From an uncultured Acidobacteriota bacterium (GTDB lineage: Bacteria > Acidobacteriota > Thermoanaerobaculia > Multivoradales > UBA5704), in assembly GCA_963792575.1 (NCBI GenBank), contig CAWBWZ010000021.1, positions 194,778-258,777 of the forward strand: a DNA stretch of 64,000 bases, in the 5' to 3' direction. The notes beneath the pieces are model-generated. The model was not told the DNA's origin. It ran no database searches and saw only the letters and a list, made by a program, of their open reading frames with translations. Shown here piece after piece: positions 20,386-47,306 of the stretch (position 1 is the first letter of the stretch; every line of letters starts with the position of its first letter). Position numbers and translations under genes: made by a program.

Positions 20386-20595
20386 ACGGCCGAAGGGGTC
20401 CAGCCCGGGACCGGCTTCAGTCGCGGGGGCTGGAGTCGTTGCGCCGGATGGGTCCAAGCCAGGGCCTTCCTTCTCTTGGATTGCCGGGGCTGAAGCCTCG
20501 CCGGTTCCGGATGCGAGGTTCCAAAGCCGGGAGAGGACGCTGGAAGGAGCCAGGAGGTACGCGGCCAGGGTGAGGGCCAAGAGAGTGCCGTGCAT
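20380..20595 (-). CDS. Possible small secreted peptide (71 aa) with a GPGLDP(S/F)G repeat
   Basis: MHGTLLALTLAAYLLAPSSVL looks like a signal peptide. GGAG lies about 8 nt upstream of the ATG. The stop overlaps the stop of the HTH-TPR gene (TCATGA). No homology evidence. Confidence 0.35.
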   Translation of the reverse strand: MHGTLLALTLAAYLLAPSSVLSRLWNLASGTGEASAPAIQEKEGPGLDPSGATTPAPATEAGPGLDPFGRS

Positions 20596-20721
20596 AGGAA
20601 AGATCTCCACGCAGCTCCGGCCACAGGTCCATAAGGGTCCCCGGGGGGCCGCGTCCGTAATCTTAGGTGCCGATCCTCGCCAGAGATGTGAAATTTCATC
20701 ATTTTTGTCAGCGGGAGACGT

Positions 20722-22310: not shown

Positions 22311-25300
22311 TCAGCGGTCCAGACGCCGCAGTTCCTCGGAAAGACCTAGAAAATGGTGTCGTTCCATCTCGTCAATGAGATCGAGACACCTGGACTGAAT
22401 CGTACGATCCTCAGTCTGAGCATAGAGACGTACCACTATTTTCGAGAGCTCCATGGCAACCGCGGCGCCTGCGCTGGATATATCTCCTGCCACATCGCGG
22501 TTAGCATCAATACACCTTTCGACACATGAGCAAACTAGATCAGGAAGCTGGACCGATGAGCTTTCAAGTGCCCGAACCACCGGCTCCAGAGCAGTTCGTC
22601 CTGGAGAGGTACCTAAAAATGCTGAGAGTAGTTCGGCTTGATCTCTTGACGAGAGGCCTGCTAGGTGTTCAAAGGCGGAAGCCGCCTTCGCACGAACCGA
22701 GTCATCCGGGTCGGCGAAGAAGGGTTTAAGTAGTTGAAGGCACGTAGGGCCGACAATGTCGTGCGCTATGTTGGACGAATAGACCTCTGCGGCAGCAGCC
22801 CGCATTATCGGATTGCCGTTTCGAACTCGTTCCGCATCCGGTTTCGCAGACTCGACATCCAAAGCAAGAAGCGTGACCTGTCGTGCGGCCGCTGCCATGA
22901 CTTCGGGTGAGGGTGATTTCAACATTGCCTCAATGACCGGATAAACTGCGACAAAATCTCTATAACCAGCGTAATGGATAAAGCTCTCTACGTATGGAGT
23001 CTCTAGCATCACCGAATCGACCGACACACACTCGCAGAACCAGCAGATTGCTCTTGCAGCGTCTAGATCCAACATGGCGAGCAGTGTCTCGACCGCACAG
23101 GAGCGAACAGCGATCGAGCTATCAATAGATAGGCTACGCACAGCCTCCAGCAATCGCTCAAGCTTCTCGGGCTGCTTTGATAATAGAAGCGCGATCGAAT
23201 CAGCAACAGTACCACGTATAGAGTTGATACCTGCACTGTGAGGACATCCACCATGGTAAGGTTGTCCATTCGGAGCAAGTGTTCTCCAAGTCTCCGTGTC
23301 CGGATCTGGATCATTAAGCGCATACCAAGCAAGGACGTCGATAACTTCCTCGGGCCAGAGGTAATCATTCCACTTTTTGATCAGCCACGCAATCTCATTT
23401 CCGCAAGGCCTTCCGGGAAGCCCATGAACCCGCCGAACAAGGGAGACAATTCTGGCCTGCGAGACCGGCGCTGCCGAGGAACGATTATCACAGGCAACGC
23501 TTTCTGCAACCCCCCTCAAAATGGCCGAGAAGTAGCTGGCCGGAAAGTCGTTGGGTATCTGTTCAGCGAGTTTTAAAAATCTTTCTGGATCGAGTTTCGT
23601 TTGAGCCGTCAATAATTGGGCGAGCTGTGGCTCCCCTCCGGATCGGAAATACTCTGGAGTGAGTCTATTTCGTCGCGCGTACTTATTCATGGCCCGAACC
23701 CAGTGGGCATCTAACATCTTACTCGCGCCGTCAGCAGAAATAGGAGATGGAATTCCAATAGATACACGTGGTGAAGTAGGAGGATCGTGCCGCTCCAAGG
23801 GAAACTTTCTCTGAAGCTCCGCGAGTCTCGCCTTTCTCACAGAGCCAAGTCGGGAGAAGTCGAGGGACCGTAGCAACTCTAACTGCATCAGGCCGCGCAT
23901 CTTTGGATACTTGGCTTCAAACTTATCCTGTAATGAGATGATCGCGTGCTCGAGTGCCTCGAATTGTGCTGTCGTGCACGTCGCTGAAGCCGCACGTACG
24001 GCCGAGGCTGAAGTATGGATGGCTGGCGACCCGCCGCTGCCGCTCCATGAGCTATACCCTATCTTTAGCCGACGAGGGTCCGCAGCCAGAAATTCGGCCA
24101 AGCGGTCTGCGTAAGACTCTGGCGCAGCGGTCCATGCGCGTAGCACAAGATACGTAATTGTATTATGCCCCCTATTTAGGTATGGCGCGAGCAGCCGATC
24201 AAGGTCAGCCGGAGCAGCCTTCGCCAGTGTCGCTAAAGCCCGGGCCAGGCATGAAAGGAGTGCTGCGGAGTTTTGAATAACAGAGCCACCAAAATGGCGG
24301 CGGGACCAGAGGGGATCGAAATCAAGGCCATCATCAACCGCAATGGCGGTTTCCTCAATGAAGCTTGCGACGCGAGGAAGAACCTGCTCTACATAGCTAA
24401 GCGTTGATTGGGCAGCGCTTTGAATAATAATGCCCCCGCTTCCAGTGTTGAGCCTTCGTGAAAGCTGATCGATGCTGGGCCGAGCGCCTCCTAGCCCGTC
24501 CTCACTTTTCCATCTGATAATTGTACGATCAAACCAATGGCCGATCACTTGGCAAGCTAATTCCGGCTGCTCATGAGCAACCGAGTAGAGCACAGACCAC
24601 CAATCGTCATTCACTGCGAACCCAGGGCGCAAATCATCGAGTGTGCCGTCATTGATCAAAGCCAGGAAAAATTCAAACATCTCTCGGCTATAGAACACTT
24701 GGCCATTGCGGCAAACAAATCGCAAATATTGATTCCACGGATCTCCTGGTTTGCGGTACAGCCGCAAGAGAGCGGCGATGCGGCCCGACCGCTCTTTCAA
24801 AAGTTCGGAGGAGCTTAGCATCCACACTACCTCCTCTTGCCGTTGCGCGCTCTCAACCGACAAAGCAGTGTCAAAGAATTCCTCAGAATCAAGGACATCA
24901 AACCAACTCGGACGTCCAGCTGTGATGCCACGAATATGTGGACTAAGCTCCCCATTTGACCGGAGCACCTTTTTGAGCACTAGCCATTCTTCCTGTCTTG
25001 GATCTACCAGCGATGATAACCAATCGAACACCAGTCGCTTGATATGGAAGCGCACCCCCGAGTGCGCTATGACTCTCTCAAGCTCGTCGAGATACCGACG
25101 CCATTCGTGAGCCCGCAGATAAGAGAGCACTTGGCGCACCTGACCGCGACGAAATAAATGCTGCTCGGCACCGAAGAGAAGGCACAGAAGGTCATCGCCT
25201 CTAGCCACCCACCTTCGAGCGAAAGCGTAATCAAAGAATGATTCATGAAAGAACTGATATTTATGGTCGGTTAAGTTCAGAATATGCTCCGAGAGCATTG

Positions 25301-26936
25301 CTCGCGCATCAGAAGATAAGTCGTCGAGAATATATTCTGGAGCAGATAATTGCTGGTTCTCGCTGAGCCAGGTCGCGATTTTGTCGATCACCTGAGTCCA
25401 CGCTGCCTTGCGCCCAAGCCTTTGGTCAACGCGACGTTCGCTCTCAACCCAAAATTTGTCGAACAGACCGTCCTTGCTCAGAATACACTCTCGGTCGCTC
25501 GGAGCCAAGTCAAGGAACATAGATAGGTGGAGAGGATTCGTGAGGATGGTCTTGAGCGAAGGATCTACGGAGCTAGGTTTCATGCTTGCACCGAGTAAAG
25601 CGCCGTCAACTTGCTCTATAGTGAGAGGCTTGACGGTTACGACTGCGAAACCAGACTGATCTGCTTTCATCGTGCGTATCCGGTGATCATGCTCTAGATC
25701 GAATTCGCGGCAGCCCACTATCAAGGACATTCGAGGAGATCGATCTATCTCGCGCCAAAGGTCGTCAAAAAGGGACCAAAGGTCCGCTCGCCTGCCAGAG
25801 GCAATGCTAATGGCATCAAGCTGGTCAATGACTAGAACGGAAGGAGCGCCGGAAGCGACGCCCGCAAGGGTAAGTACCGGCGATTCAGGGAGAAGTAGCT
25901 TCCGGCCCAGTTCCGTTGTAGTGAGAATCCCTTCAGGTAGTTGGTCGAACCGAATCGGTATCACAGGCACATGGAGGGCCCGCAGGTGCTCGACTACGGC
26001 TGCTAGGGTTGTGCTTTTGCCAGCACCTGCTCCGCCGACCACAAGCGACTTTGCGTTTGATAGGTGGCCATCGAAACTCAGCAGAGACTCTGCCCCGGGT
26101 AATGGCAGTAAAGACCCATTAATGAGGCGAGAGCGCTGCGACAGCGTGTATGACTCACACATATCTTCTATTCGATCCAACACTGACTTGTCCGCCGACC
26201 ACTCGCGCAGCCGAATTCCGTGATTGGCTAATTTCCCAAGAATCGTGACTTTGTCGAGTGGCTTGTGGATATTGTCGAGGAGCAATTCAGATAGATGTCC
26301 TCGTATCTCAGCTACATTCAGCGAGCCATCCACTGAATAGAAGAGCTTTCGGGTCGCAAAGTCGACACGTCCACGAAGCTGAACCTCATTGGATACAGAT
26401 ATCCGAGTCCGCCTGAGGAAGGTTAGCGCACGTTCGAGATCATTGCTGCAGAGTGGTAGAATGTATTTTCTGAACGCAGCATTCAGCTTTGCAGAGCGAC
26501 TAAGTCGAGCGTCTAGATCTGCTTTGTCGATGGAAAAGGTCCGAAGTTCCTCGAGGTCGCGAGCGCCCTGAGCTGAAGCGAAGACAGCGTAAGAACTGGG
26601 CTCCATCTCAACGTGGCGTAGAAGGTCGCCCAAGATCGTTCTGCCCCTCTTGTCTTGGCTGGTTAGGATGCTTAGGGTCCACCCCTCTGCTTTCGTCGTT
26701 TGGCTCTTGACTGACCAGTATTCTTTTGTATTGCCGTCGGTGTAAACGACAAACTCAACTCCTCGCGCCTCATCTTGGTCGAGAGGTTCTAAGATTAAAT
26801 GGTGTGCGGAGCCATCGACGATCCGCAGGAGCTGATCGATCGCCCATGAAGTTTCATAACGATTGCCGAGCTTGTCGGCGGCACCACCGCTAACCGGCAT
26901 GACAGGTGTGCTCGCAGCGGCCGAAGGTGCGCTCAA
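22311..26936 (-). CDS. STAND NTPase (NACHT-like): N-terminal Cap4/DUF4297-like PD-(D/E)xK nuclease domain, C-terminal HEAT/ARM repeats
   Basis: Intact 1541-aa ORF with G+C about 50%. The N-terminus GGAADKLGNRYETSWAIDQLL..LEPLDQDE..VEFVV..WSVKSQ resembles DUF4297/Cap4 nuclease. Walker A is LVVGGAGAGKST, Walker B is VLVIDQLDAIS, and SLIVGCREFD sits at the NACHT hhhTSR position. C-terminal HEAT-like repeats include IAVRSCAVETLLAMLD, PEVMAAAARQVTLLALD and DDSVRAKAASAFEHLA. Confidence 0.75.
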   Translation of the reverse strand: MSAPSAAASTPVMPVSGGAADKLGNRYETSWAIDQLLRIVDGSAHHLILEPLDQDEARGVEFVVYTDGNTKEYWSVKSQTTKAEGWTLSILTSQDKRGRTILGDLLRHVEMEPSSYAVFASAQGARDLEELRTFSIDKADLDARLSRSAKLNAAFRKYILPLCSNDLERALTFLRRTRISVSNEVQLRGRVDFATRKLFYSVDGSLNVAEIRGHLSELLLDNIHKPLDKVTILGKLANHGIRLREWSADKSVLDRIEDMCESYTLSQRSRLINGSLLPLPGAESLLSFDGHLSNAKSLVVGGAGAGKSTTLAAVVEHLRALHVPVIPIRFDQLPEGILTTTELGRKLLLPESPVLTLAGVASGAPSVLVIDQLDAISIASGRRADLWSLFDDLWREIDRSPRMSLIVGCREFDLEHDHRIRTMKADQSGFAVVTVKPLTIEQVDGALLGASMKPSSVDPSLKTILTNPLHLSMFLDLAPSDRECILSKDGLFDKFWVESERRVDQRLGRKAAWTQVIDKIATWLSENQQLSAPEYILDDLSSDARAMLSEHILNLTDHKYQFFHESFFDYAFARRWVARGDDLLCLLFGAEQHLFRRGQVRQVLSYLRAHEWRRYLDELERVIAHSGVRFHIKRLVFDWLSSLVDPRQEEWLVLKKVLRSNGELSPHIRGITAGRPSWFDVLDSEEFFDTALSVESAQRQEEVVWMLSSSELLKERSGRIAALLRLYRKPGDPWNQYLRFVCRNGQVFYSREMFEFFLALINDGTLDDLRPGFAVNDDWWSVLYSVAHEQPELACQVIGHWFDRTIIRWKSEDGLGGARPSIDQLSRRLNTGSGGIIIQSAAQSTLSYVEQVLPRVASFIEETAIAVDDGLDFDPLWSRRHFGGSVIQNSAALLSCLARALATLAKAAPADLDRLLAPYLNRGHNTITYLVLRAWTAAPESYADRLAEFLAADPRRLKIGYSSWSGSGGSPAIHTSASAVRAASATCTTAQFEALEHAIISLQDKFEAKYPKMRGLMQLELLRSLDFSRLGSVRKARLAELQRKFPLERHDPPTSPRVSIGIPSPISADGASKMLDAHWVRAMNKYARRNRLTPEYFRSGGEPQLAQLLTAQTKLDPERFLKLAEQIPNDFPASYFSAILRGVAESVACDNRSSAAPVSQARIVSLVRRVHGLPGRPCGNEIAWLIKKWNDYLWPEEVIDVLAWYALNDPDPDTETWRTLAPNGQPYHGGCPHSAGINSIRGTVADSIALLLSKQPEKLERLLEAVRSLSIDSSIAVRSCAVETLLAMLDLDAARAICWFCECVSVDSVMLETPYVESFIHYAGYRDFVAVYPVIEAMLKSPSPEVMAAAARQVTLLALDVESAKPDAERVRNGNPIMRAAAAEVYSSNIAHDIVGPTCLQLLKPFFADPDDSVRAKAASAFEHLAGLSSRDQAELLSAFLGTSPGRTALEPVVRALESSSVQLPDLVCSCVERCIDANRDVAGDISSAGAAVAMELSKIVVRLYAQTEDRTIQSRCLDLIDEMERHHFLGLSEELRRLDR

Positions 26937-33764: not shown

Positions 33765-33787
33765 CATGGTGGGATAATCCCACCATG
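33765..33787. promoter_or_regulatory. 23-bp perfect palindrome overlapping the vapB start codon (candidate operator)
   Basis: CATGGTGGGAT-A-ATCCCACCATG. A degenerate copy precedes the orphan vapB paralog at 44137-44155. Confidence 0.45.
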
Positions 33788-34018
33788 GCGATCTCGACAA
33801 CTGATGCTAAGCGGCGCGTGGTCCTTCCGGAGGCAAAACCCGGGGATGTCTTCGACATCCAGAACCAGGGTGAAGGCCGCCTCCTTCTCGTGCGCCTCGA
33901 AGCTCCGAAGCCGGCTCCCAGGATGAGCATGGCTCGCTGCCTCGAGGCGATCGCTGCCGCCCCTCTGCAACCGAAATTGACCTGGGAATCCCTGAAAGCA
34001 GTGACTCGAGAGCCATGA
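33785..34018 (+). CDS. vapB: AbrB/SpoVT-type antitoxin (VapB-like)
   Basis: STTDAKRRVVLPEAKPGDVFDIQNQGEGRLLL is a swapped-hairpin AbrB-type pattern. It overlaps the PIN gene by 4 nt. Confidence 0.75.
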   Translation: MAISTTDAKRRVVLPEAKPGDVFDIQNQGEGRLLLVRLEAPKPAPRMSMARCLEAIAAAPLQPKLTWESLKAVTREP

Positions 34019-34431
34019 TCCTCCTCGATACGAATGTCCTGATCTACGCCTCCACCGATCAGTCGCCCTTTCTCGAATGGGCTCGGCACATGATCGCCGC
34101 GGGGGTGTCGGAGGACGGAGCGGCGGTCAATGCGGTCAGCCTCGCGGAGATCTGTGTGGGCGATGCCGAACCGGAAATTGTTGCCGATCGGCTCCGAAGT
34201 TGGGGCATTACTCTACTTGATGTCCCCGCGGTCGCCGCAGAACCGTGTGCCAAGGCCTACCTGAAGTACCGGGAGCGCCGACGCTCGGAATCCGGTCGCG
34301 ACGCGCCCTCGCTACCGCTGCCCGATTTCTTCATCGGTGCCCATGCTCAGGTCATGGGTTGGCCACTCGCGACAGCCGACGAAGGACGCTTCCGAACCTA
34401 TTTCCCTTCCGTCACCCTTCGGACGCCCTGA
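34015..34431 (+). CDS. vapC: PIN-domain toxin (VapC-like)
   Basis: MILLDTNVLIY (first acidic residue), SLAEI, DFFIGAHAQVMGWPLATADEGRF (conserved distal Asp). 138 aa. Confidence 0.8.
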   Translation: MILLDTNVLIYASTDQSPFLEWARHMIAAGVSEDGAAVNAVSLAEICVGDAEPEIVADRLRSWGITLLDVPAVAAEPCAKAYLKYRERRRSESGRDAPSLPLPDFFIGAHAQVMGWPLATADEGRFRTYFPSVTLRTP

Positions 34432-37042: not shown

Positions 37043-38605
37043 TTACTGTGAGACGTCTTCGGGGTCAGGTTTCAGGTCGTGCGGCAGGGTAACGGTACCT
37101 GATATGTGGAGGGCGGCGCGGGTGGCCTCCAGCAGGTAGGAGCGCGGTTCGACGCCCGCGAGTTTGGCGGTCTCGCAGAGGCTGTAGAAGAGCGCCGCTA
37201 CCTCTGTGCCCCGCTTCGATCGCGAGCCATAGTGATTCTTCCGGCCGACGACGACACCTCGCAGCGCCCGTTCGGCGGCATTGTTGTCAAGCGGGATCCG
37301 GGGGTTCTCGAGGAAGCGGGTCAGACCCTTCCACATTCCAAGCAGGTACTCCGTAGCCCGCCCCAAAGCGCTGCGGGGCAGGGTCTTTCGTCGCAGATCT
37401 TCGGCGCACGCGTAAATCTGCGCAATCAGCGGACGAGAGCGCTCTTCCCGTAATTTTGCCCGCAAGGCGAGATGCTCCTGCGCCTCAGGAAAGCCCAGCC
37501 GGGGCGCCTCGCGCTCTACCGCATAGAGCTTGCCAAAAAGCTGCAAAATATCTCCGCAAGCCTGCGGGTACTCAGGCTCGATTTCGATGAATTTTCGCCG
37601 CGCATGGGCCCAGCAGTGCGCCAAGGTGATCTCCGGCCCGGCCCGAGCCAAAGACTCATAGGCTCCGTAGCCATCGCAAAGCACAATCCCGCGGTAGCCG
37701 GAGAGCACCGACCGAGCGGCTTTCGTGGAGCGGCTGCCCAACAGGCGATAGAAGACCGCCTCCTCGCTGGCCACGCACCAAACCCACCAGCGCGAGGTCT
37801 CCGTCTCTTGTCCCATCAACCGCCAGTGAGTCTCGTCGGCGTACACCACCGGGGAGGTGAGCACCCGCGGGCGCAGAGCCTCATAGGAGGGTTCGAGATG
37901 GCAGGCCAAGGCCTCGATCTGATCCCATAGCGTCTGAGAGGTCACCGTCAGGCCCTCCCTCGCCATGATCCGCACCTGCCGCTCCAAAGGAGCATGGTCC
38001 AGGTATTTGCTGATCGCCACCTCGACGGCCAACTCCGCGGAATAGCGACCGCCCGGAATGAGGCGAGCCGGCCCTGGCGCGGTCACGACGCTGGCGTTGC
38101 ACTGGCAGCGATACTTGCGTCGCCGGTGCCGCACCACTTGGAAACTGCGCTGGACGAGAGTGACCTCTTCGTAGTCTTCCGACTGTTCGCCCATCTCGGC
38201 CATCTGATGGCCACACTGCGGACAGGACCGCTCGGCCTCGGGCAACTCATGGATGGCCTCGACGATCGGCAATTGTTTCTGCTCCCGCGGGCCGTGGCCA
38301 CTGGGCACCGCCGGTTCCGAGGCCGTCTCGGAGGTCGACCGCGGCCGCTTTTCCGAGGAGACGCCAAAGATCTCTCGCTCCCGGCGGGCCAAGAGCTCCT
38401 GTAACTGATCGATCTCCAGTTGCAGGGCCTGGGCGTCGGCGCCCTGCAACTTCAGCTTTTCCGCGGTGAGCTTTCGAAGGCGTTCGTGGAGGGTTTCGTT
38501 CTCACGCCAGAGCAGACGAGCCACCTGCCGGAGGATCTCGATATTCTGCTCGGTCTCGATCTTGACCACGACCCAGATTGCAGCACAGCTGCACCTAGAA
38601 AGCAA
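37043..38605 (-). CDS. tnpC: IS66-family transposase TnpC
   Basis: Leucine-zipper-like N-terminus, zinc-finger CPQCGH..., then a DDE region. 520 aa, directly downstream of an IS66 Orf2-like gene. Confidence 0.85.
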   Translation of the reverse strand: MLSRCSCAAIWVVVKIETEQNIEILRQVARLLWRENETLHERLRKLTAEKLKLQGADAQALQLEIDQLQELLARREREIFGVSSEKRPRSTSETASEPAVPSGHGPREQKQLPIVEAIHELPEAERSCPQCGHQMAEMGEQSEDYEEVTLVQRSFQVVRHRRRKYRCQCNASVVTAPGPARLIPGGRYSAELAVEVAISKYLDHAPLERQVRIMAREGLTVTSQTLWDQIEALACHLEPSYEALRPRVLTSPVVYADETHWRLMGQETETSRWWVWCVASEEAVFYRLLGSRSTKAARSVLSGYRGIVLCDGYGAYESLARAGPEITLAHCWAHARRKFIEIEPEYPQACGDILQLFGKLYAVEREAPRLGFPEAQEHLALRAKLREERSRPLIAQIYACAEDLRRKTLPRSALGRATEYLLGMWKGLTRFLENPRIPLDNNAAERALRGVVVGRKNHYGSRSKRGTEVAALFYSLCETAKLAGVEPRSYLLEATRAALHISGTVTLPHDLKPDPEDVSQ

Positions 38606-38963
38606 GGTTTTTTCGCGGAAAGACGGGTGGCGAAAGCGCGATCTTGCCCACCAGCGTACTGCCTTCCAAGAACAACTCCAACTCGCTCATCGTCAGGCGC
38701 AGCCGAGCGTTCCCCGGCTCCCGCCAAAGGCTGGCGAAACACCCTTGCTCCAGACGCTTGCTGTAGATGCACAGACCAGTACCGTCCCACAGCAGCACCT
38801 TCGCCAAGTGCCGGCTCCGGTTGACGAAGAGAAATAGATCCCCCGACAGTGGATCCTGGCCGAGGTCTCCGCCCACCAGCGCCGCCAGCCCATCGAAACC
38901 CTTTCTCAGGTCGACCGCACGGCCGTAAGCCCAAACCCGCACCTGGCGCGTGGCTCCGATCAT
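38595..38963 (-). CDS. tnpB: IS66 Orf2-like protein TnpB
   Basis: VWAYGRAVDLRKGFDGLAALV..DPLSGDLFLFVNRSRHLAKVLLWDGTGLCIYSKRLEQGCF is the canonical IS66 Orf2 pattern. Confidence 0.9.
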   Translation of the reverse strand: MIGATRQVRVWAYGRAVDLRKGFDGLAALVGGDLGQDPLSGDLFLFVNRSRHLAKVLLWDGTGLCIYSKRLEQGCFASLWREPGNARLRLTMSELELFLEGSTLVGKIALSPPVFPRKNLAF

Positions 38964-39319
38964 CCCAGGACTCGCAGCAACTCGGCGATCTGCGCCAGCC
39001 GCAGACCTTCAATCCGCCAACCCGACGGCGTCACCACAACGAGGAAGGATGTCGAGCCGAGCGCTTCCTGGTCTCTCTGCACCTCTACGGGCCGCAGCGG
39101 CTCGTCAGCGCCTATCCTCCCAAGCCAGCGCGCCAGTGTCGCTGGCCCAATCCCCAAATCCTCGGCCACCCTCCCGAGGCTCCGGCCTTCTCGCATTCCC
39201 CTTCGCGCCAAGGCCACCGCCTCCTGACGCAGATCCTCCCGATAGCGCACGCCACGACTCGGCGGGCCACCCAAGGACCTCGCTACAGCACTGCGAAACT
39301 GCTCCACTTGTGTAGGCAT
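38960..39319 (-). CDS. tnpA: IS66 Orf1-like HTH protein TnpA
   Basis: HTH segment GRSLGRVAEDLGIGPATLARW. ATGA-type overlap with tnpB. The start is at internal Met 39319. Confidence 0.75.
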   Translation of the reverse strand: MPTQVEQFRSAVARSLGGPPSRGVRYREDLRQEAVALARRGMREGRSLGRVAEDLGIGPATLARWLGRIGADEPLRPVEVQRDQEALGSTSFLVVVTPSGWRIEGLRLAQIAELLRVLG

Positions 39320-39392
39320 CCTGATCCCTCCTGGGGAATCAGACTGCACGAAACAGGCGACCGGGACCAGACGGGGAAGGGCGAGGTGTTAC

Positions 39393-39744
39393 CTACTTCG
39401 CGGGCACTCCCCTGCCGCCCCCCAGCGGCGTCATCGCGCAGCCGCCCGACATCGCCATCGAGATCGTCTCCCCGACGCCCCGCGATGGCCGCCGGGATCG
39501 GGTGGAGAAAGTAGCGGACTACGCCGCCTTCGGGGTGCGCTACTACTGGATCGTCGATCCTCAACTCCGCAGCCTGGAGATCCTGGGCCGGGGTCCCCAA
39601 GGCCGCTACGAACACCTCCTCAGCGCCACGGAAGGCACGATCGACATTCTACTTTTTCAGATTACCCAAAGAGCAATTTTCAGCCCCGCAGGGGCGATCG
39701 GAATTAGCCCGGGCCGTGAGGCCCGGGAACCGCCCCCCACCTAA
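39393..39744 (+). pseudogene. Uma2-family endonuclease, C-terminal half
   Basis: YFAGTPLPPPSGVIAQPPDIAIEIVSPTPRDGRRDRVEKVADYAAFGVRYYWIVDP carries the Uma2 catalytic D..E.K-type region. The 3' end runs into a REP-like element. Confidence 0.7.
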
Positions 39745-39877
39745 CCAGGAGCCCCGCAAGGGCGGCAGGAAACGACGCCACGCTGATCTCCTGCCGCCCC
39801 TGCGGGCTTTGGGGTGGTTTGCTCCGGGTTCCCGGGGCTGACGCCCCGGGCTAATTCCGGTCGCCCCTGCGGGGCTG
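39681..39877. repeat. About 200-bp nested palindromic REP-like element (family 3)
   Basis: Left arm CAGCCCCGCAGGGGCGATCGGAATTAGCCCGGGCCGTGAGGCCCGGGAACC. Right arm GGTTCCCGGGGCTGACGCCCCGGGCTAATTCCGGTCGCCCCTGCGGGGCTG. A second hairpin sits between them. Confidence 0.75.
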
Positions 39878-40057
39878 ATCTGACAAAGTAGAAATAAGCA
39901 GAACCCACACACCCGGGATCGACAAGCCGAAGCATTGACGCGCCTCATGAAATAAATTATCTTTATGCCTTAGCCTAGAAGCAGAAGAACCATGCATGGA
40001 TCGCTATCTCCAGGGGTCCTCGTTGGGGCAACGCCTTGTCCATGACTAGGCTAACTA

Positions 40058-40852
40058 TTGCACCGCCGTAGGTATAACTCTACCAGGAGGCACACAGTGT
40101 TCTCGGCAGCTACAAGCAAGAAATTTATCACTCTCTTTCTGTTGACCGCGTTGACCACAAGTTGCGCAGAACTGCAGCCATCGGTATTGACTCAACGACA
40201 ATTCACGGCGCTAAACGCTCTGGCTGCTCCCGTAGCGCTGCCACCGCTCAATACTGAGGCTGTAGCCCAAGTCGGTGATACGATGATCCAAGGTGGGAAT
40301 GTCTATACCCGTCCCGCGATCCGCCTTATTCAAGCAGTCATACATCGAGGCCTTAGCAAAGGGCCATTCACAATCCAGATTCCCGCAGGGGTTCTAGTAG
40401 CGTCAGGAACTTCCAGGTCTGGTCCGCTGCGGGGAGTATTCTTCGAAGCTCAACAACCGCTGCAGTTCGTTTCTGCCGGTAACGTAGTCGTAAAGGGCGG
40501 CATCTTCGTGCCTGAAGGACAGGGCGCACCGCCAGAGATTTACTGGCACGCAACCGATACCGGAGTGCCGCTTGTTGATCCAGACCCCACAATTCGGTTT
40601 GAGCGTACTACTCATGAGGAGTGGCAGAGCGAGAGCTTTCGTCGCGAGCTGATTTACAACGGCCGCTCGGGAGGAACGATCAAGCTTCTATACCGTGAGT
40701 TTAGCGAAGAACAAATCCGCCCTGCCTTCACTCAAGAAGTCACGTACGACTTCGTACAAGGTGAACCAATTGGCTTCAAGGGCGCACGCTTTCAGGTAAT
40801 CGACGCCGATAATATTAGAATCAAATACATTGTCCTGCACCACTTCAACTGA
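40058..40852 (+). CDS. Putative lipoprotein (hypothetical)
   Basis: Lipobox-like FLLTALTTSC near the N-terminus. Lower G+C. Start uncertain. Confidence 0.5.
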   Translation: MHRRRYNSTRRHTVFSAATSKKFITLFLLTALTTSCAELQPSVLTQRQFTALNALAAPVALPPLNTEAVAQVGDTMIQGGNVYTRPAIRLIQAVIHRGLSKGPFTIQIPAGVLVASGTSRSGPLRGVFFEAQQPLQFVSAGNVVVKGGIFVPEGQGAPPEIYWHATDTGVPLVDPDPTIRFERTTHEEWQSESFRRELIYNGRSGGTIKLLYREFSEEQIRPAFTQEVTYDFVQGEPIGFKGARFQVIDADNIRIKYIVLHHFN

Positions 40853-41078
40853 GGAAACTCTCTGTGGCTTCTCACAACGTCTCCTAATGGGCCAACACAG
40901 TAAGCCGCTTACCCGAAAGGCTGAAACGTTTGACGTATCTCATAAAGCGGACCATGACATGCACGCCGTTGCTATTGCTGAGAGATTCACCAACAGAGTC
41001 GGAGGCCTCGCCGCAACATAGCAGAGTTAAGTCGGAGTAGCCACGCGGTCAACGATTGATCTCTATAATGGGGTAGGC

Positions 41079-41987
41079 ATGAAGAACAACTCCTTGGGCA
41101 CCAGTTGGGTACCGGCACGTCTTGTAATTTCGGTTTTCGCCGCCGGGATGGTTGCGCTCTTCGTTTGGTCGATCTACGCACTTTGGGAGCGACTGGAGCG
41201 GCGGGAGGGAAGGCCATATTCAGCAGAAAAACTCCCGCCTCGTCCCGAACTAGACCGTGTCGTAGAGTCAATTAACAAGCGACTAGCTGCTACCAAAATC
41301 TCTGAATATGGCGTAATGGTCGAAGGTGAGCCTCCTGCAATGAGGCTCACCATCGCTACTGATCACCCCAACTACTTCTTTGACAGCACGAGTTATGTAA
41401 TAGAAACAGGCGGCGACGTGCGCAAAATACCTACCGCCGGGCTTTGTCAGCTAATAGACAGAATAGAGCAGGAGAGAAACTCTCCTGCTCTGGACGCACT
41501 CGACAAGATTAATGCAGAAGCGGAGCTCGGGCCAGATGGAGCAAAATTGAAGGCTGCCGGTCCATTCAGAGCGGTATTCGAAGTACTATACGCCCTTAGA
41601 GGTGTCACAAAAATACCGAAGAGACAAGCAAGAATTTTAATCAAAGGGTACGCAGATGATCAAAAAACAGACTGGGGAAAAAATCTAGCGGCAACGCCAT
41701 ACCATTTCGATCACATTCCAGTTCTATTTCCAATGATGACAGAGAAAGAATCCCTCAATCCGGTGAACTTCCGTGCTCGGCCTGCCGTAGTAACCGTCCC
41801 AGATCCGTATAAAAATGAACACTTGCCTGATCTACGGGCAGCATTCTTCAAACAAGACTTTATCGAACCTTTCCTACGAGACTGCGGAGGAGTGGACAAT
41901 ATCCGAGTTTACATTTTAAAGGGCTATGAGTTCAGGAGACATGACCCCAGGGAGCGTCGAGTTGATGTTCAGATCGATTTGTTTTAA
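41079..41987 (+). CDS. Membrane-anchored protein with OmpA/MotB-like C-terminal domain (tentative)
   Basis: N-terminal TM helix LVISVFAAGMVALFVWSIYAL. The C-terminal ILIKGYADDQ...LPDLRAAFF...ERRVDVQIDLF resembles the OmpA_C peptidoglycan-binding pattern (h.I.G.TD...N..LS..RA...NRRVeh). Confidence 0.5.
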   Translation: MKNNSLGTSWVPARLVISVFAAGMVALFVWSIYALWERLERREGRPYSAEKLPPRPELDRVVESINKRLAATKISEYGVMVEGEPPAMRLTIATDHPNYFFDSTSYVIETGGDVRKIPTAGLCQLIDRIEQERNSPALDALDKINAEAELGPDGAKLKAAGPFRAVFEVLYALRGVTKIPKRQARILIKGYADDQKTDWGKNLAATPYHFDHIPVLFPMMTEKESLNPVNFRARPAVVTVPDPYKNEHLPDLRAAFFKQDFIEPFLRDCGGVDNIRVYILKGYEFRRHDPRERRVDVQIDLF

Positions 41988-42082
41988 CACATTAAGACAT
42001 CGATAGAAAGCATATGCGGTTAGAAGTAGGCTTGCCAGAGCTCACGGCGTAAGCCAGAGGGCAACCTGACCGGGAGGAGGTG

Positions 42083-42100
42083 CGTATAGGTGCCTGGCAC
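42083..42100. repeat. 18-bp direct repeat CGTATAGGTGCCTGGCAC, copy 1
   Basis: Identical to 44078-44095. An inverted 11-nt core, AGGTGCCTGGC, is also at 42281-42291. Confidence 0.75.
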
Positions 42101-42365
42101 CTTCTCTCAGAGCTAAGAGCCCCATCTCAACCTCGCGCTGCTCGGCGCGGACCCGTAGCTCGTCTGCACGGAACTCGAAGACTACGCCAATCGAGTTCTC
42201 CGGTACCTCGGTTGCGACCGGAGTTCCGCCCGACCACCTCCCTGTTCCTGCGGATCTTGGCAGCGTAACAGCTGAATAATGCCAGGCACCTCTTCGTTCG
42301 CTGTCAGCCCTTGGCCGACCAGGACTGCCATGATTAAAAAAGCTTCTCTACCTCGAATGCTCTTA

Positions 42366-43466
42366 TTACCTATCAAAAGTAGCTAGGTACAATTTAGCTT
42401 CTTCTCGCTCTCTTTGGGAAGAATCACGAGAATTCGCCAGTGAAGCAAGGATCTCCCTTGCGGCCTGCCTTTCTGCCAAGTCAACCCCGAACTGTAACAT
42501 CGCCCGACAAGCAGTAAGAACTAGATTTGCAGCATTGCTCTCCTGACCAGCAGCAATCAATCGGCGAGCCCCTTCCAAAATAAATCCCCGCCTCGCGGAG
42601 TCTCCCATAAGGCTCAAATAGTACACCAGATTATTTAACGCCATCATTTCAGCCGCCCCACCAACCTTGCGGAGAAGTTCATAGCCCTGCTGAACGAACA
42701 TGATGGCCTCGGCCAACTTATCCCTATCTCGAACATCTAAACTTTCATGATCTATCGCTGCTTCTGCTACCACATACCCCAAAACTGAGAGCATTCGCCC
42801 TCTCATCTCAATTTCCAACGACAGAAATCTTTCCTCAATCAGCCTTCTAAGAGATGGCCAAGCTATTACAAAGAACCCCGCAACCAACACCACTTGAAGA
42901 AAGAGTACGCACACAAAGCCAGCGGCAATAAAAATCTGACCCCTTACCCCAGATGCTACATTTCCTTGCCCAACAACATACAAGAAGACGGCCGATATAA
43001 GCATAAGTAGGGAGGCAGTCCCGAGACTCAATGCAACGACCTTAGCCGACAGCGGTCGAATGGCAAGCGGCCGGCCAATTGTTTCTTGGCGAAACTGTTC
43101 GAATGGGGAGGACTCTTCTGTGCCGGGAGCAACCTGAGAGCTCTCGTTATCTGAAGGCGTGGGCCATGCGCTGCTGTCATGGGTTCGCAGCCCGCCTAGC
43201 TCGCCGACAAGTTCTTGGCTCGTTCGGCCTTCGAATGCAGAGAGTGTCACCAGGAAGTCAGCAGCTCTCAAATCGTAATCGCCAATGCTTCTGTCGATAG
43301 GCAATAAAAGTTCAACCATGCCTCCAGTAAAGGCGTTCCATCTACTCCATCTAACGACGTTAGTTGAATCAGATATTTCTATCCATCCCCTTGTCTTTAG
43401 ATAAACTGCTATTCGGGACAATGGAATTCTCTTCAATTCCTCGATTTCAGAAGTACTCTCTTTCAT
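42366..43466 (-). CDS. Membrane protein: soluble N-domain, about 3 TM helices, helical-repeat (TPR-like) C-terminus
   Basis: The start at Met 43466 gives an ATGA overlap with the DUF4365 gene. TM segments VVALSLGTASLLMLISAVFLYVV and IFIAAGFVCVLFLQVVLVAGFFVIAW. The C-terminal helical repeats include MALNNLVYYLSLMGDSARR. Confidence 0.6.
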   Translation of the reverse strand: MKESTSEIEELKRIPLSRIAVYLKTRGWIEISDSTNVVRWSRWNAFTGGMVELLLPIDRSIGDYDLRAADFLVTLSAFEGRTSQELVGELGGLRTHDSSAWPTPSDNESSQVAPGTEESSPFEQFRQETIGRPLAIRPLSAKVVALSLGTASLLMLISAVFLYVVGQGNVASGVRGQIFIAAGFVCVLFLQVVLVAGFFVIAWPSLRRLIEERFLSLEIEMRGRMLSVLGYVVAEAAIDHESLDVRDRDKLAEAIMFVQQGYELLRKVGGAAEMMALNNLVYYLSLMGDSARRGFILEGARRLIAAGQESNAANLVLTACRAMLQFGVDLAERQAAREILASLANSRDSSQREREEAKLYLATFDR

Positions 43467-43963
43467 GGCCGTCCCCCTCCCGCTATGAGCGCCATCAATT
43501 CTTGTAATCCTGTCGGACTGAAGAGCTGTCGACGCGGTAAGCGAACGGCTACCGACCGACGGTTGGCTTTTTCCGGAAGACCAAGCAAAGAAACCCAGTA
43601 GCCACAGTGCTTCAGCACTAGACATCTTTCATCATGATCAATCCAATCATTAACGTCGCCGGGCACCAAAACCACAACCAGAATTCTTGGAACCAAGAGG
43701 TTCGTGTGCCGGAGGTCATCATAATTTTTCTTTTTAAGATCGAAGCTTATATACTCTGGCTCGGGAGTTAGTGACGTGCACTTGATCTGCAATTCCAGCC
43801 TTGGCGAACGAATTGCGCCTACCGTGCGGGCAGATATCCCGAGATCTATACTTTCATTATCCACACTTGGCTTATGGACGGAATAACCGGAAGCAGCGGC
43901 AACCGCACCTACATATGCTAGGCTGAACTGTTCTTTCTTCGCCGACAAGTGCATTTCGTCCAA
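43463..43963 (-). CDS. DUF4365-like (restriction-endonuclease-fold) protein
   Basis: KKEQFSLAYVGAVAAASGYSVHKPSVDNESIDLGISA....PRLELQIKCTS matches my recollection of the DUF4365 pattern (E..a.h..ha...G......D.GhD..h....h.hQhK.T). Confidence 0.6.
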   Translation of the reverse strand: MDEMHLSAKKEQFSLAYVGAVAAASGYSVHKPSVDNESIDLGISARTVGAIRSPRLELQIKCTSLTPEPEYISFDLKKKNYDDLRHTNLLVPRILVVVLVPGDVNDWIDHDERCLVLKHCGYWVSLLGLPEKANRRSVAVRLPRRQLFSPTGLQELMALIAGGGRP

Positions 43964-44077
43964 TGGTGGAACTCCTGGCCTTCGTCGTAGCGTAACCCAA
44001 TTCTACTGACTCTCATTTATATCTATTTTGTTCATCATATAATGCTTTTCTCGATTCCGCCAGGGGAGGTCCTGTGC

Positions 44078-44095
44078 CGTATAGGTGCCTGGCAC
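44078..44095. repeat. 18-bp direct repeat CGTATAGGTGCCTGGCAC, copy 2
   Basis: See 42083-42100. Confidence 0.75.
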
Positions 44096-44152
44096 GGCCC
44101 TCAGCCCGCCCTCGAATTTGCACTCGCCAGGTTTGGGTGGGACAATCCCACC

Positions 44153-44386
44153 ATGTCGATATCGACAGTTGATGCCAAGCGGCGCGTGGTTCTTCCGGCG
44201 GCAAGACCCGGGGATGTCTTCGACATCCAGAACCAGGGTGAAGGCCGCCTGCTCCTGGTGCGCCTCGAACCTCCAGCGCCGGGACCCAGGATGAGCATGA
44301 CGAGCTGCCTTGAGGCTATCGCCGCCGCCCCTCTGCGGCCGAAAATGAACTGGGACTCCCTGAAGACAGTGACCCGGGAGCCATGA
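44153..44386 (+). CDS. Orphan AbrB/SpoVT-type antitoxin (VapB paralog) followed by a decayed vapC stub
   Basis: About 85% identical at the protein level to 33785..34018. The downstream ORF keeps only MMLLDT of the PIN N-terminus. Confidence 0.7.
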   Translation: MSISTVDAKRRVVLPAARPGDVFDIQNQGEGRLLLVRLEPPAPGPRMSMTSCLEAIAAAPLRPKMNWDSLKTVTREP

Positions 44387-44457
44387 TGCTCCTCGATACG
44401 ACAGCCCGAGACTGCGGTTATCGTGACGATCCCGGAGTAAGATTCGCCGCGCCGCGA

Positions 44458-46698: not shown

Positions 46699-47306
46699 GA
46701 ATTGAAGCTTCCGGCGGGACTTGGTAACGGTATCTGGCGCGATGGAAGCTTACAGAGTCCCACGGTAAGCTTACGCCGGCAAAATTAAGCTTGCAGAGCC
46801 GCGATGGGAGCTCCCAGTGAGACTCGGTAAGCTTCCGCCGGCCGATGGAAGCTCCCAGTGGCGCAATGGGAGCTTACGGAGGCACTCGGTAGCGGTATCT
46901 GGCGCGATGGGAGCTTACAGAGTGACCCCGTAAGCTTCCGCCGGCAAAATGAAGCTTGCAGAGTCGCAATGGGAGCTCCCAGTGGGGCTCGGTAAGCTTC
47001 CGCCGGCCGATGGAAGCTCCCAGTGGTGCAATGGGAGCTTACGGCGGCACTCGGTAGTGGTATCTGGCGCGATGGGAGCTTACAGAGTGACCCGGTAAGC
47101 TTCCGCCGGCAAAATGAAGCTTACAGAGCCGCGATGGGAGCTCCCAGTGGGACTCGGTAAGCTTCCGCCGGCCGATGGAAGCTCCCAGTGGCGCAATGGG
47201 AGCTTACGGAGGCACTCGGTAGCGGTATCTGGCGCGATGGGAGCTTACAGAGCGCCACGGTAAGCTTCCGCCGGCAAAATTAAGCTTACAGAGCCGCAAT
47301 GGGAGT
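46699..47306. repeat. Nested tandem array: 165-bp higher-order repeat (about 3.7 copies) built from about 30 sub-repeats of 20-21 bp with an AGCT core
   Basis: AATGGGAGCTTACGG recurs at 46865, 47030 and 47195, and GGTATCTGGCGC at 46730, 46894, 47059 and 47224 (period 164-165). Sub-units include GGGAGCTCCC, GGAAGCTCCC, GTAAGCTTCC and TGAAGCTTGC. There are many AAGCTT sites and no ORF. Confidence 0.9.

What the first reader, a model, noticed from the sequence alone, without database searches (positions are those of the whole stretch)
42083..44095. 2-kb cassette bounded by 18-bp direct repeats: DUF4365-like nuclease-fold protein coupled to a TM + helical-repeat protein (candidate two-gene defence system)
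CGTATAGGTGCCTGGCAC occurs at 42083-42100 and 44078-44095, with an inverted core at 42281-42291. The repeats enclose just two minus-strand genes joined by an ATGA overlap. One is a 166-aa DUF4365-like protein (restriction-endonuclease-like fold, frequently seen in defence neighbourhoods). The other is a 367-aa protein with a soluble N-domain, about 3 TM helices and a TPR-like C-terminus. A nuclease-fold sensor or effector with a membrane protein recalls abortive-infection designs. The repeat-bounded, low-GC context next to TA remnants suggests a horizontally moving cassette. I know of no described system with this pair.
Basis: partly seen in the sequence, partly recalled or inferred. Interest (0 to 1): 0.65.

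Follow-up and report, generated by a model that had tools for sequence, protein, structure and literature searches.

The report
Membrane-anchored variant of PDC-M02 defence candidate
The two overlapping genes are a rare, membrane-anchored version of a nuclease-plus-partner pair already catalogued (but never tested) as the candidate anti-phage system PDC-M02, and the 18-bp repeats around them are real but do not mark a mobile cassette.

Summary
The sequence features are there: the exact 18-mer at 42083-42100 and 44078-44095, a third degenerate inverted copy, two minus-strand genes with an ATGA overlap, low GC, and toxin-antitoxin remnants.

**Gene A** (166 aa) is a true DUF4365 protein. Its predicted fold is closest to the DREN nuclease domain of SPARDA, and it keeps the catalytic D...QxK residues.

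**Gene B** (366 aa) has four parts: a roughly 95-aa N-domain, a disordered linker, a 2-TM hairpin and a TPR-like domain.

**The pair is not undescribed.** PADLOC models call it PDC-M02A/B, a candidate system from "guilt-by-embedding". I found no report of an experimental test.
- Only B's N-domain matches PDC-M02B.
- Across 95 loci, A is almost always followed, with the same ATGA overlap, by a protein carrying this N-domain.
- The rest of B is exchangeable: soluble about 380 aa, short about 180 aa, PLD-helicase, or here 2TM+TPR.
- The 2TM+TPR module is a family of about 250-aa stand-alone membrane proteins, occasionally fused to TIR.

**The repeat-bounded cassette idea fails.** A 95%-identical relative carries the same pair without the left repeat. 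That repeat arrived with a strain-specific 2.5-kb insertion.

**Verdict:** a new variant of a known candidate kind, of moderate interest.

The parts
43463..43963 (-). Gene A: 166-aa (probably 163-aa, ATG at 43954) stand-alone DUF4365/DREN-type PD-(D/E)XK nuclease, PADLOC PDC-M02A
   Evidence: Pfam PF14280 E = 6.6e-23. PDC-M02A E = 7e-58. AF2 pLDDT 89; best Foldseek matches are the SPARDA DREN-APAZ chains 9qcc, 9vx6 and 9jt2 (E = 4e-7), then EcoRV, Hjc and I-Ssp6803I. D, Q and K are invariant in 30 homologues with the same spacing as the catalytic D41/Q60/K62 of NbaSPARDA. dN/dS 0.07 against the relative.
42366..43466 (-). Gene B: 366-aa partner, start overlaps the stop of A (ATGA)
   Evidence: AF2 model pLDDT 83. 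dN/dS 0.28 against the relative, so it is a functional gene.
43182..43466 (-). B residues 1-95: conserved alpha-alpha-beta-beta-alpha-alpha N-domain, the only part shared with PDC-M02B; proposed docking domain for A
   Evidence: PDC-M02B HMMs align to residues 1-91 only. A home-made HMM of this domain hits the gene downstream of A in 87 of 95 loci. No Pfam or PDB relative by sequence.
43056..43181 (-). B residues 96-137: disordered linker
   Evidence: pLDDT below 50 for residues 96-113 and 131-136.
42837..43055 (-). B residues 138-210: two transmembrane helices (hairpin). Both soluble domains are predicted to be cytoplasmic
   Evidence: Hydropathy segments 139-168 and 170-210. AF2 helices 141-167 and 174-237. 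The positively charged flanks are read directly from the sequence.
42369..42836 (-). B residues 211-366: TPR-like helical-repeat domain, with motifs E(L/M)RGR, LNNLVFY, LTxCRA and (R/K)KEA
   Evidence: pLDDT 94-98 for blocks 231-360. Foldseek best matches are the LGN and KLC TPR domains, prob about 1 but E = 0.04-0.4. Homologous to 136 representative clusters at E < 1e-10. Alignment A4.
44078..44095 (+). Right copy of the 18-mer. It lies in the divergent A/vapB intergenic region, downstream of a promoter-like site at 44016-44043, and is present in both strains
42279..42296 (-). Degenerate inverted copy of the motif (15/18 matches, 12-mer exact). Together with the right copy it brackets the A-B operon in both strains
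   Evidence: (I18).
42083..42100 (+). Left copy of the 18-mer. It is specific to the window strain and lies at the right edge of the 2465-bp strain-specific segment
   Evidence: joint 39644 to 42110 in run X1.
42101..42278 (.). GC-rich, non-coding or pseudogene remnant ('X') between the left copy and the inverted copy. It is 97% conserved between the strains
   Evidence: No Rfam match. RNA fold z = -1.7.
39645..42109 (.). Strain-specific segment that replaces 170 bp of the relative. It holds a MITE-like element, two low-GC plus-strand ORFs (264 aa and 302 aa) and the left 18-mer
   Evidence: L101 is 100% identical to the window across this region, from 40421 to 44235.
44153..44400 (+). vapB-like AbrB/MazE-type antitoxin gene (77 aa) followed by a vapC cut after about 6 codons. 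This is the TA remnant
   Evidence: 82% identical to the intact vapB at 33785-34018. Weak MazE/AbrB HMM hits. The intact VapC paralogue is at 34015-34431.

Best explanation
The locus is a two-gene candidate anti-phage/anti-MGE module of the PDC-M02 type, in a rare membrane-anchored form.

**Protein A** is a small free-standing DREN/DUF4365 PD-(D/E)XK nuclease with an intact catalytic D...(E/D)xQxK site. It is the likely effector.

**Protein B** is its translationally coupled partner.
- Its conserved 95-aa N-domain is proposed to hold A.
- The exchangeable remainder of B is proposed to sense the trigger and control the assembly state.

**Basis for the mechanism.** In SPARDA, the isolated DREN domain is monomeric and inactive. 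It becomes a collateral DNase only when its carrier forces it into tetramers.

**Proposed sequence of events**
1. At rest, B keeps A dispersed and inactive at the inner membrane.
2. A phage cue is recognised by the cytoplasmic TPR-like domain, or felt by the 2-TM hairpin, and makes B oligomerise.
3. Clustered A becomes an active non-specific nuclease.
4. The infected cell, or the incoming DNA, is destroyed (abortive infection).

**Shown**
- Family membership of A, its fold and its catalytic residues.
- The domain architecture of B.
- Conserved A-then-B synteny with an ATGA overlap.
- Modular exchange of B's C-terminus.
- Purifying selection on both genes.

**Inferred**
- The A-B contact.
- Activation by oligomerisation.
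- The nature of the trigger.
- The defence phenotype.

The flanking 18-mers are not part of the mechanism.
For: **Identity of A**
- DUF4365, E = 6.6e-23. PDC-M02A, E = 7e-58.
- Best structural matches are SPARDA DREN domains.
- D/Q/K are invariant and align with the mutationally validated D41/Q60/K62. DREN alone is monomeric and inactive and is activated by tetramerisation (PMC12205087).

**Pairing of A and B**
- B's N-domain matches PDC-M02B.
- 87 of 95 loci have an N-domain protein directly downstream of A, and 77 of 95 show the ATGA overlap.
- The C-terminal modules of B vary: about 380 aa soluble (45 loci), about 180 aa (19 loci), a PLD+SNF2 helicase fusion (L022), this 2TM+TPR form, and other multi-TM forms (P0246, P0257, P0269).
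- The 2TM+TPR module also occurs fused to TIR domains (P0128, P0134).

**Defence and mobility context**
- PDC-M02 was defined from cassettes embedded in BREX, DISARM or type I RM systems.
- Here the pair is embedded in type I RM in L021 and L023, lies next to a type IIG RM in L071, and lies next to a protein with a Shedu-like domain in L019.
- It is genes 1-2 at the end of Mycobacterium abscessus prophages.
- A homologues occur on 26 plasmids and in 10 IMG/VR contigs.

**Both genes are functional:** dN/dS is 0.07 for A and 0.28 for B.
Against: - I found no report of an experimental test of PDC-M02, so defence is inferred from context only.
- Most loci show no defence neighbours. This window is not a defence island.
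- The A-B contact was not modelled.
- A is only about 15% identical to SPARDA DREN and is not found by sequence search of the PDB, so oligomerisation-dependent activation may not transfer.
- The stand-alone 2TM+TPR family mostly sits in housekeeping contexts, so its link to immunity is thin: two TIR fusions and one prophage-border locus.
Confidence: 0.55

Rival explanations
1. The roles are reversed. B is the effector: its 2-TM hairpin oligomerises and depolarises the membrane. A is a DNA-binding or DNA-end sensor, or a second effector, that reports foreign DNA to B through the N-domain.
For: - 136 of 149 relatives of the C-module are small proteins with TM segments, some of which could act alone.
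- TM2 has a conserved small-residue motif, LFGAxSxALF.
Against: - Most B partners of this A family have no TM segment at all, so membrane disruption cannot be the family's common output.
- A keeps a complete catalytic site under strong purifying selection.
- In SPARDA the same domain is the effector.
Confidence: 0.15
2. The pair is an addiction or toxin-antitoxin-like module, or otherwise selfish cargo. A is a nuclease toxin and B neutralises it, with no dedicated anti-phage role.
For: - It is an overlapping two-gene operon that occurs on plasmids and prophages.
- It lies among TA remnants and IS elements in this window.
- B's N-domain could simply inhibit A.
Against: - B is large.
- B's N-domain is fused to sensor- or enzyme-like modules (PLD-helicase, TPR), unlike typical labile antitoxins.
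- A precedes B, and B lacks a DNA-binding antitoxin fold.
- The pair occurs embedded inside RM operons.
Confidence: 0.15
3. This is the first reader's reading: a 2-kb cassette that moves horizontally, with the 18-bp direct repeats as its boundaries (target-site duplication or recombination sites).
For: - The 18-mers are exact.
- The three-copy motif cluster is non-random.
- The cassette has low GC.
- An inverted pair of the motif brackets the operon in both strains.
Against: - The close relative L002 has the cassette with only the right copy and an intact neighbouring Uma2 gene end. The left copy therefore came with a later 2465-bp insertion.
- No integrase or transposase lies inside. The nearest transposase genes belong to an IS66 element at 37.0-39.3 kb.
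- The motif is absent from the other A-B loci fetched (L001-L101).
- The repeats sit 20-240 bp outside the GC boundaries.
- An 18-mer pair within 2.5 kb arises by chance in about 3% of simulations.
Confidence: 0.05
4. The motif copies are operator sites of a local regulator, for example the AbrB-type VapB encoded next door, and have nothing to do with mobility.
For: - The core is palindromic (5-1-5).
- The right copy lies 35-52 bp downstream of a sigma-70-like promoter (44016-44043) and 58 bp upstream of the vapB start.
- The motif is conserved in the relative.
Against: - The intact paralogous vapBC at 33.8 kb has no such motif upstream.
- No binding data exist.
- The promoter scan found no more sites than shuffled sequence gives.
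Confidence: 0.2

Closest known systems
PADLOC phage-defence candidate PDC-M02 (Payne, Hughes, Fineran and Jackson 2024, bioRxiv 10.1101/2024.01.29.577857; cassette CAS_00021, FAM_01850>>FAM_00842)
   Same: - The same A protein family (E = 7e-58).
- The same gene order and 4-nt overlap.
- The same N-terminal domain in B.
   Different: - Canonical PDC-M02B is a soluble protein of about 380 aa. Here residues 96-366 are replaced by a linker, a 2-TM hairpin and a TPR-like domain that no PDC-M02B model covers.
- Among 95 loci, this architecture occurs only in the window strain and its near relative (the window's own region, L002). L101, fetched later and 100% identical to the window, carries it too.
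- In the 1.84-billion-protein representative search, no listed hit other than the window's own protein covers both halves of B.
- PDC-M02 itself remains an untested candidate.
SPARDA (short prokaryotic Argonaute with DREN/DUF4365-APAZ)
   Same: - The same nuclease domain family and fold.
- The same catalytic D/Q/K residues.
- The proposed logic of activating the nuclease by forced oligomerisation.
   Different: - There is no Argonaute, no APAZ and no guide nucleic acid.
- The nuclease is a separate polypeptide, not a fusion.
- Sequence identity is only about 15%.
- The sensor is a protein module (TPR/TM), not a guide-target duplex.
Divona (single-gene system from Vibrio chromosomal integron cassettes: DUF4365 + Mrr-like nuclease + crr6 domain; bioRxiv 10.1101/2024.07.02.601686)
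   Same: A DUF4365 domain in an experimentally supported anti-phage gene.
   Different: Divona is a single fused polypeptide with a different partner domain, carried in an integron cassette. It has no B-type partner and no TM.
Immune proteins that combine TPR-type sensors or 2-TM segments with effectors (for example TIR-TPR fusions and the 2-TM effectors of CBASS/Pycsar; recalled from general knowledge, not tested here)
   Same: The C-module of B is a 2-TM hairpin plus a TPR-like domain. Relatives carry an N-terminal TIR in place of the TM hairpin.
   Different: No sequence or HMM relationship to any named PADLOC family was found for this module. There is no cyclic-nucleotide signalling partner.

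Membership tests
PADLOC PDC-M02 | Protein A matches a PDC-M02A HMM | tested here: met
   E = 7.1e-58, residues 4-162 against profile positions 3-163 of 167. All 25 listed hits are PDC-M02A models.
PADLOC PDC-M02 | Protein B matches a PDC-M02B HMM over its length | tested here: not met
   Best E = 7.6e-13, but only residues 1-91 align to profile positions 1-90 of 380. Residues 96-366 are unrelated.
PADLOC PDC-M02 | A immediately upstream of B, on the same strand, as one operon | tested here: met
   ATGA overlap at 43463-43466. The same -4 overlap is seen in 77 of 95 loci.
PADLOC PDC-M02 | Anti-phage activity | not testable with these tools
   No paper in the library reports a test of PDC-M02.
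DUF4365 / DREN PD-(D/E)XK nucleases | Pfam PF14280 above the gathering score | tested here: met
   81.7 bits against 24.3, covering profile positions 1-138 of 139.
DUF4365 / DREN PD-(D/E)XK nucleases | Restriction-endonuclease-like fold resembling solved DREN domains | tested here: met
   AF2 pLDDT 89, pTM 0.86. Foldseek top 12 hits are all SPARDA chains (E = 4e-7 to 1e-4, TM on query 0.54-0.62), followed by EcoRV, Hjc and I-Ssp6803I.
DUF4365 / DREN PD-(D/E)XK nucleases | Catalytic Asp ... Gln-x-Lys retained | tested here: met
   D39, Q58 and K60 (alignment numbering) are invariant in 30 homologues. The spacing of 19 and 2 residues equals that of NbaSPARDA D41, Q60 and K62.
DUF4365 / DREN PD-(D/E)XK nucleases | Nuclease activity | not testable with these tools
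   Needs biochemistry.
SPARDA | Short pAgo plus an APAZ-containing partner | tested here: not met
   Neither A nor B hits Ago or APAZ models in Pfam or PADLOC. The neighbouring ORFs scanned have no such hits.
TPR repeat proteins | Significant match to TPR sequence models or structures | tested here: inconclusive
   No Pfam TPR hit for B. One relative has a weak TPR_MalT hit, E = 0.0025. Foldseek best matches are TPR domains (LGN, KLC) with high probability but E = 0.04-0.4.
Repeat-bounded mobile cassette (transposon with target duplication, or site-specific cassette) | Both boundary repeats travel with the cassette in relatives, or an empty site exists | tested here: not met
   L002 carries the cassette with one repeat only. 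The left repeat belongs to a strain-specific insertion. The motif is absent from the other loci checked.
Repeat-bounded mobile cassette (transposon with target duplication, or site-specific cassette) | A recombinase or transposase associated with the element | tested here: not met
   Only A and B lie between the repeats. The nearest mobility genes are IS66 tnpABC at 37043-39349.

The most novel reading that the evidence does not exclude
B's 95-aa N-domain is a general docking adaptor. It hands a free-standing DREN nuclease to interchangeable sensor modules, making the system a trans-acting, Argonaute-free counterpart of SPARDA.

The 2TM+TPR module used here would define an unrecognised family of small membrane-bound immune sensors. 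That family is found alone in soil bacteria and fused to TIR. In this reading, the locus couples detection of infection at the membrane to nuclease activation.
Probability: 0.3. Interest if true: 0.65.

Novelty: new variant of a known kind. Interest (0 to 1): 0.45.

Why it matters
PDC-M02 is listed with the figure 894, apparently its RefSeq instance count, in the source table of a paper that proposes 145 candidates. It has no phenotype or mechanism.

This locus, together with the 95-locus comparison, shows three things:
- The constant parts are the DREN-type nuclease and a small N-domain.
- Everything else in B is swappable.
- This gives a concrete, testable model: an adaptor plus an exchangeable sensor controlling an oligomerisation-gated nuclease.

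It also points to a second, uncharacterised family, the roughly 250-aa 2TM+TPR proteins, which may be immune sensors in their own right.

The comparison also corrects a tempting but wrong inference that short flanking repeats mark a mobile cassette.

Tried and rejected
- **Word-indexed search with B** found only 3 proteins. The exhaustive representative search was needed.
- **Sequence searches of the PDB** with the A profile and the B N-domain profile found nothing meaningful.
- **Is remnant 'X' (42101-42330) the missing part of vapC?** No: tblastn was negative.
- **Is X a structured RNA?** No Rfam hit, and the fold z-score is only -1.7.
- **Does homology extend beyond the 18-mer?** No.
- **Exact 14-mer scan of viral contigs** gave 50 scattered single hits, as expected by chance, and was uninformative.
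- **Same motif upstream of the intact vapBC paralogue?** Absent.
- **tblastn of a cyanobacterial short B against phage genomes** gave no match.
- **BFVD fold search with B** gave only marginal hits: a 101-aa Nodularia phage protein (E = 1.5e-3) and a 381-aa Leptospira phage LE1 protein. Which part of B they align to was not established, and this was not followed further.
- **Neighbour survey** of 130 flanking proteins in 35 loci found only sparse defence genes. Defence-island enrichment could not be claimed.
Full report
**1. The observation**

The 18-mer CGTATAGGTGCCTGGCAC is present exactly at 42083-42100 and 44078-44095. A third copy with three mismatches lies on the minus strand at 42279-42296. 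Its core GTGCCTGGCAC is, apart from its centre base, its own reverse complement. This explains the 'inverted core'.

The 12-mer AGGTGCCTGGCA occurs exactly three times in the 64-kb window, only at these sites. With up to 1 mismatch there are 4 matches, all at these sites, against 0.29 expected.

A fair null model tempers the direct-repeat claim. In block-wise second-order Markov simulations, some exact direct 18-mer appears in 15% of windows. One within 2.5 kb appears in 2.7%. Similarity does not extend beyond 18(+3) bp.

Two minus-strand genes lie between the repeats and are joined by ATGA (43463-43466). A is 43463-43963. B is 42366-43466, 366 aa. A 230-bp GC-rich remnant lies there as well.

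The low-GC island is wider than the finding states, about 39900-44100.

To the right lie a vapB-like gene and a vapC truncated after about six codons. An intact vapBC paralogue sits at 33785-34431.

**2. Protein A**

- A matches Pfam DUF4365 at E = 6.6e-23 and PADLOC PDC-M02A at E = 7e-58.
- Homologues of 163-166 aa, about 50% identical, occur in Planctomycetota, Cyanobacteria, Chloroflexota, Bacillota and Myxococcota.
- Thirty of them share invariant D39, Q58 and K60 in alignment numbering.
- The AlphaFold model (pLDDT 89) finds the DREN domains of SPARDA complexes as its twelve best PDB matches (E = 4e-7 to 1e-4). EcoRV, Hjc and I-Ssp6803I follow.
- In NbaSPARDA the catalytic residues are D41, Q60 and K62, with the same spacing.
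- The isolated DREN domain is monomeric and inactive. It becomes a collateral nuclease only when filament formation forces it into tetramers (PMC12205087).

**3. Protein B**

Hydropathy and the AlphaFold model (pLDDT 83) give four parts:
- an alpha-alpha-beta-beta-alpha-alpha N-domain (residues 1-95);
- a disordered linker (96-137);
- two long TM helices (about 141-167 and 174-205), the second continuing as a cytoplasmic helix;
- a very confident helical-repeat domain (to residue 363).

The best structural matches of the repeat domain are TPR domains of LGN and kinesin light chain, at weak E-values. Charged residues flanking the hairpin put both soluble domains in the cytoplasm. This is read from the sequence and is an inference.

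PADLOC PDC-M02B models match residues 1-91 only.

**4. The pair elsewhere**

I retrieved 94 further loci with an A homologue.
- In 87 of 95 loci the gene directly downstream encodes a protein with B's N-domain.
- The 4-nt overlap is present in 77 of 95.

The rest of B varies:
- a soluble form of about 380 aa (45 complete cases);
- a short form of about 180 aa that keeps only the last beta-rich part (19 cases);
- a 1240-aa fusion to a PLD nuclease and an SNF2/DEAD helicase (L022);
- the 2TM+TPR form, which among these 95 is found only in the window strain and its 94.7%-identical relative L002. L101, fetched later and 100% identical to the window, carries it too.

The exhaustive search of 1.84 billion representatives also found three proteins with the N-domain joined to a different multi-TM module (P0246, P0257, P0269).

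The N-domain is therefore the constant partner of A, and the remainder is a swappable module.

Between the two strains, dN/dS is 0.07 for A and 0.28 for B. Both genes are maintained.

**5. The 2TM+TPR module**

- Residues about 140-366 of B are homologous (136 representative clusters at E < 1e-10) to stand-alone proteins of about 250 aa. These have two (sometimes four) TM helices and the same helical domain, with motifs E(L/M)RGR, LNNLVFY and LTxCRA.
- Two clusters replace the TM part with an N-terminal TIR domain.
- Genomic contexts of five stand-alone members are mostly housekeeping. One lies at a Mu-like prophage border next to DUF4062 and DndB-like genes.
- The immune link of this family is suggestive, not established.

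**6. Defence and mobility context**

PDC-M02 comes from the 'guilt-by-embedding' screen of Payne et al. 2024. Cassette CAS_00021 is listed with the figure 894, apparently its instance count, and marked 'Assign as candidate PDC-M02'. I found no experimental test of it. Validation papers tested other PDCs.

In my loci:
- the pair is embedded in type I RM operons in L021 and L023;
- it adjoins a type IIG enzyme in L071 and a protein with a Shedu-like domain in L019;
- most neighbours are unrelated.

A homologues also lie on 26 plasmids, mainly from Nostocales, and in 10 IMG/VR contigs. The pair forms genes 1-2 at the end of two Mycobacterium abscessus prophages.

The window itself is a mobile-element-rich patch rather than a defence island. 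It holds IS66, a MITE-like element, a Uma2 remnant and vapBC.

**7. The repeats are not cassette boundaries**

- Contig L002, from a rhizosphere metagenome, aligns to window 44407-42110 at 94.7% and then jumps to window 39644-39558. The same joint is seen when contigs are laid on the window.
- L002 has only the right 18-mer. It also has the complete 3' end of a Uma2-family gene that is truncated in the window.
- The window-specific 2465 bp (39645-42109) comprise a MITE-like element, two low-GC ORFs and the left 18-mer at the very edge.
- The simplest history is a later insertion-with-deletion in the window lineage. The A-B pair therefore existed without the direct repeat.
- What both strains share is an imperfect inverted pair of the motif (42280-42296 and 44078-44094) bracketing the operon.
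- Its meaning is open: operator sites, relics of recombination, or chance. The motif is absent from the other A-B loci fetched by then and from the paralogous vapBC promoter.

**8. Mechanism and verdict**

I propose that A is an oligomerisation-gated collateral nuclease. B is proposed to be its adaptor-sensor, here anchored in the inner membrane with a cytoplasmic TPR-like receptor. A trigger would cluster B and thereby activate A, giving abortive infection.

The rivals, weighed in their own sections, are:
- B as a membrane effector;
- a TA-like addiction module;
- a repeat-bounded mobile cassette;
- the repeats as operator sites.

The finding is a real and correctly described locus. Its central novelty claim is overtaken by PADLOC's PDC-M02, and its mobility claim is not supported. 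The genuinely new element is the domain-swapped, membrane-anchored B and the modular picture it reveals.

Noticed in passing
window 39647-39893: A roughly 247-bp MITE-like palindromic element, with terminal inverted repeats at 39647-39667 and 39873-39893. Its two inner arms are each a full-length, above-threshold match to Rfam RF01687 Acido-Lenti-1 RNA (39831-39876 +, 56.3 bits; 39682-39727 -, 51.5 bits; gathering score 37). It interrupts a Uma2-family gene remnant. Its borders show many loose ends and high depth in soil and rhizosphere contigs, so it is multicopy. This suggests an Acidobacteriota-type host, and that this 'sRNA' motif can be part of a mobile palindromic repeat.
   Followed up: partly
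window 40058-40852 and 41079-41987 (+): Two low-GC ORFs present only in the window strain. The 264-aa ORF has a lipoprotein-like N-terminus, and its C-terminus hits phrog_1353 (unknown function, E = 9e-30). The 302-aa ORF has an N-terminal TM segment and no family hit. They are probably separate horizontally acquired cargo.
   Followed up: partly
window 42101-42330: The GC-rich remnant between motif copies is 97% identical between the two strains, more conserved than the adjacent B gene. It has no Rfam hit and no significant fold. It contains a frameshifted protein-like reading on the minus strand.
   Followed up: partly
window 33785-34431 and 44153-44400: An intact vapB-vapC (AbrB-type antitoxin plus PIN toxin) locus and an 82%-identical second vapB whose vapC is cut after about six codons.
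   Followed up: yes
window 37043-39349 (-): An IS66-family element with tnpA (129 aa), tnpB (122 aa) and tnpC (520 aa). It abuts the 5' side of the Uma2 remnant.
   Followed up: no
window 46728-47111: A tandem array with a 165-bp period, seen as exact repeats of up to 65 bp. It overlaps short repetitive ORFs.
   Followed up: no
window 22311-26936 (-) and 18916-22149 (+): A 1541-aa STAND-like protein (weak AAA_16 and HEAT hits, weak PADLOC PDC-M54A hit, E = 1e-9). Two paralogous TPR proteins (489 aa and 475 aa; only the latter has an HTH hit) are duplicated with a 1764-bp offset.
   Followed up: partly
BFVD hits to the B model: A 101-aa protein of a Nodularia phage (A0A482MK90, TM on target 0.77, E = 1.5e-3) and a 381-aa protein of Leptospira phage LE1 gave marginal Foldseek matches to the B model. 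Their lengths (101 and 78 aligned columns) suggest B's N-domain, but which part of B aligns was not established. A phage-encoded stand-alone N-domain could be a decoy that sequesters the nuclease.
   Followed up: partly
L153 (Mycobacterium phage prophi102-2) 398-2160: Genes 1 and 2 at the left end of two M. abscessus prophages are a canonical A-B pair (A HMM E = 3e-33; B N-domain E = 4e-9) with the same 4-nt overlap.
   Followed up: yes
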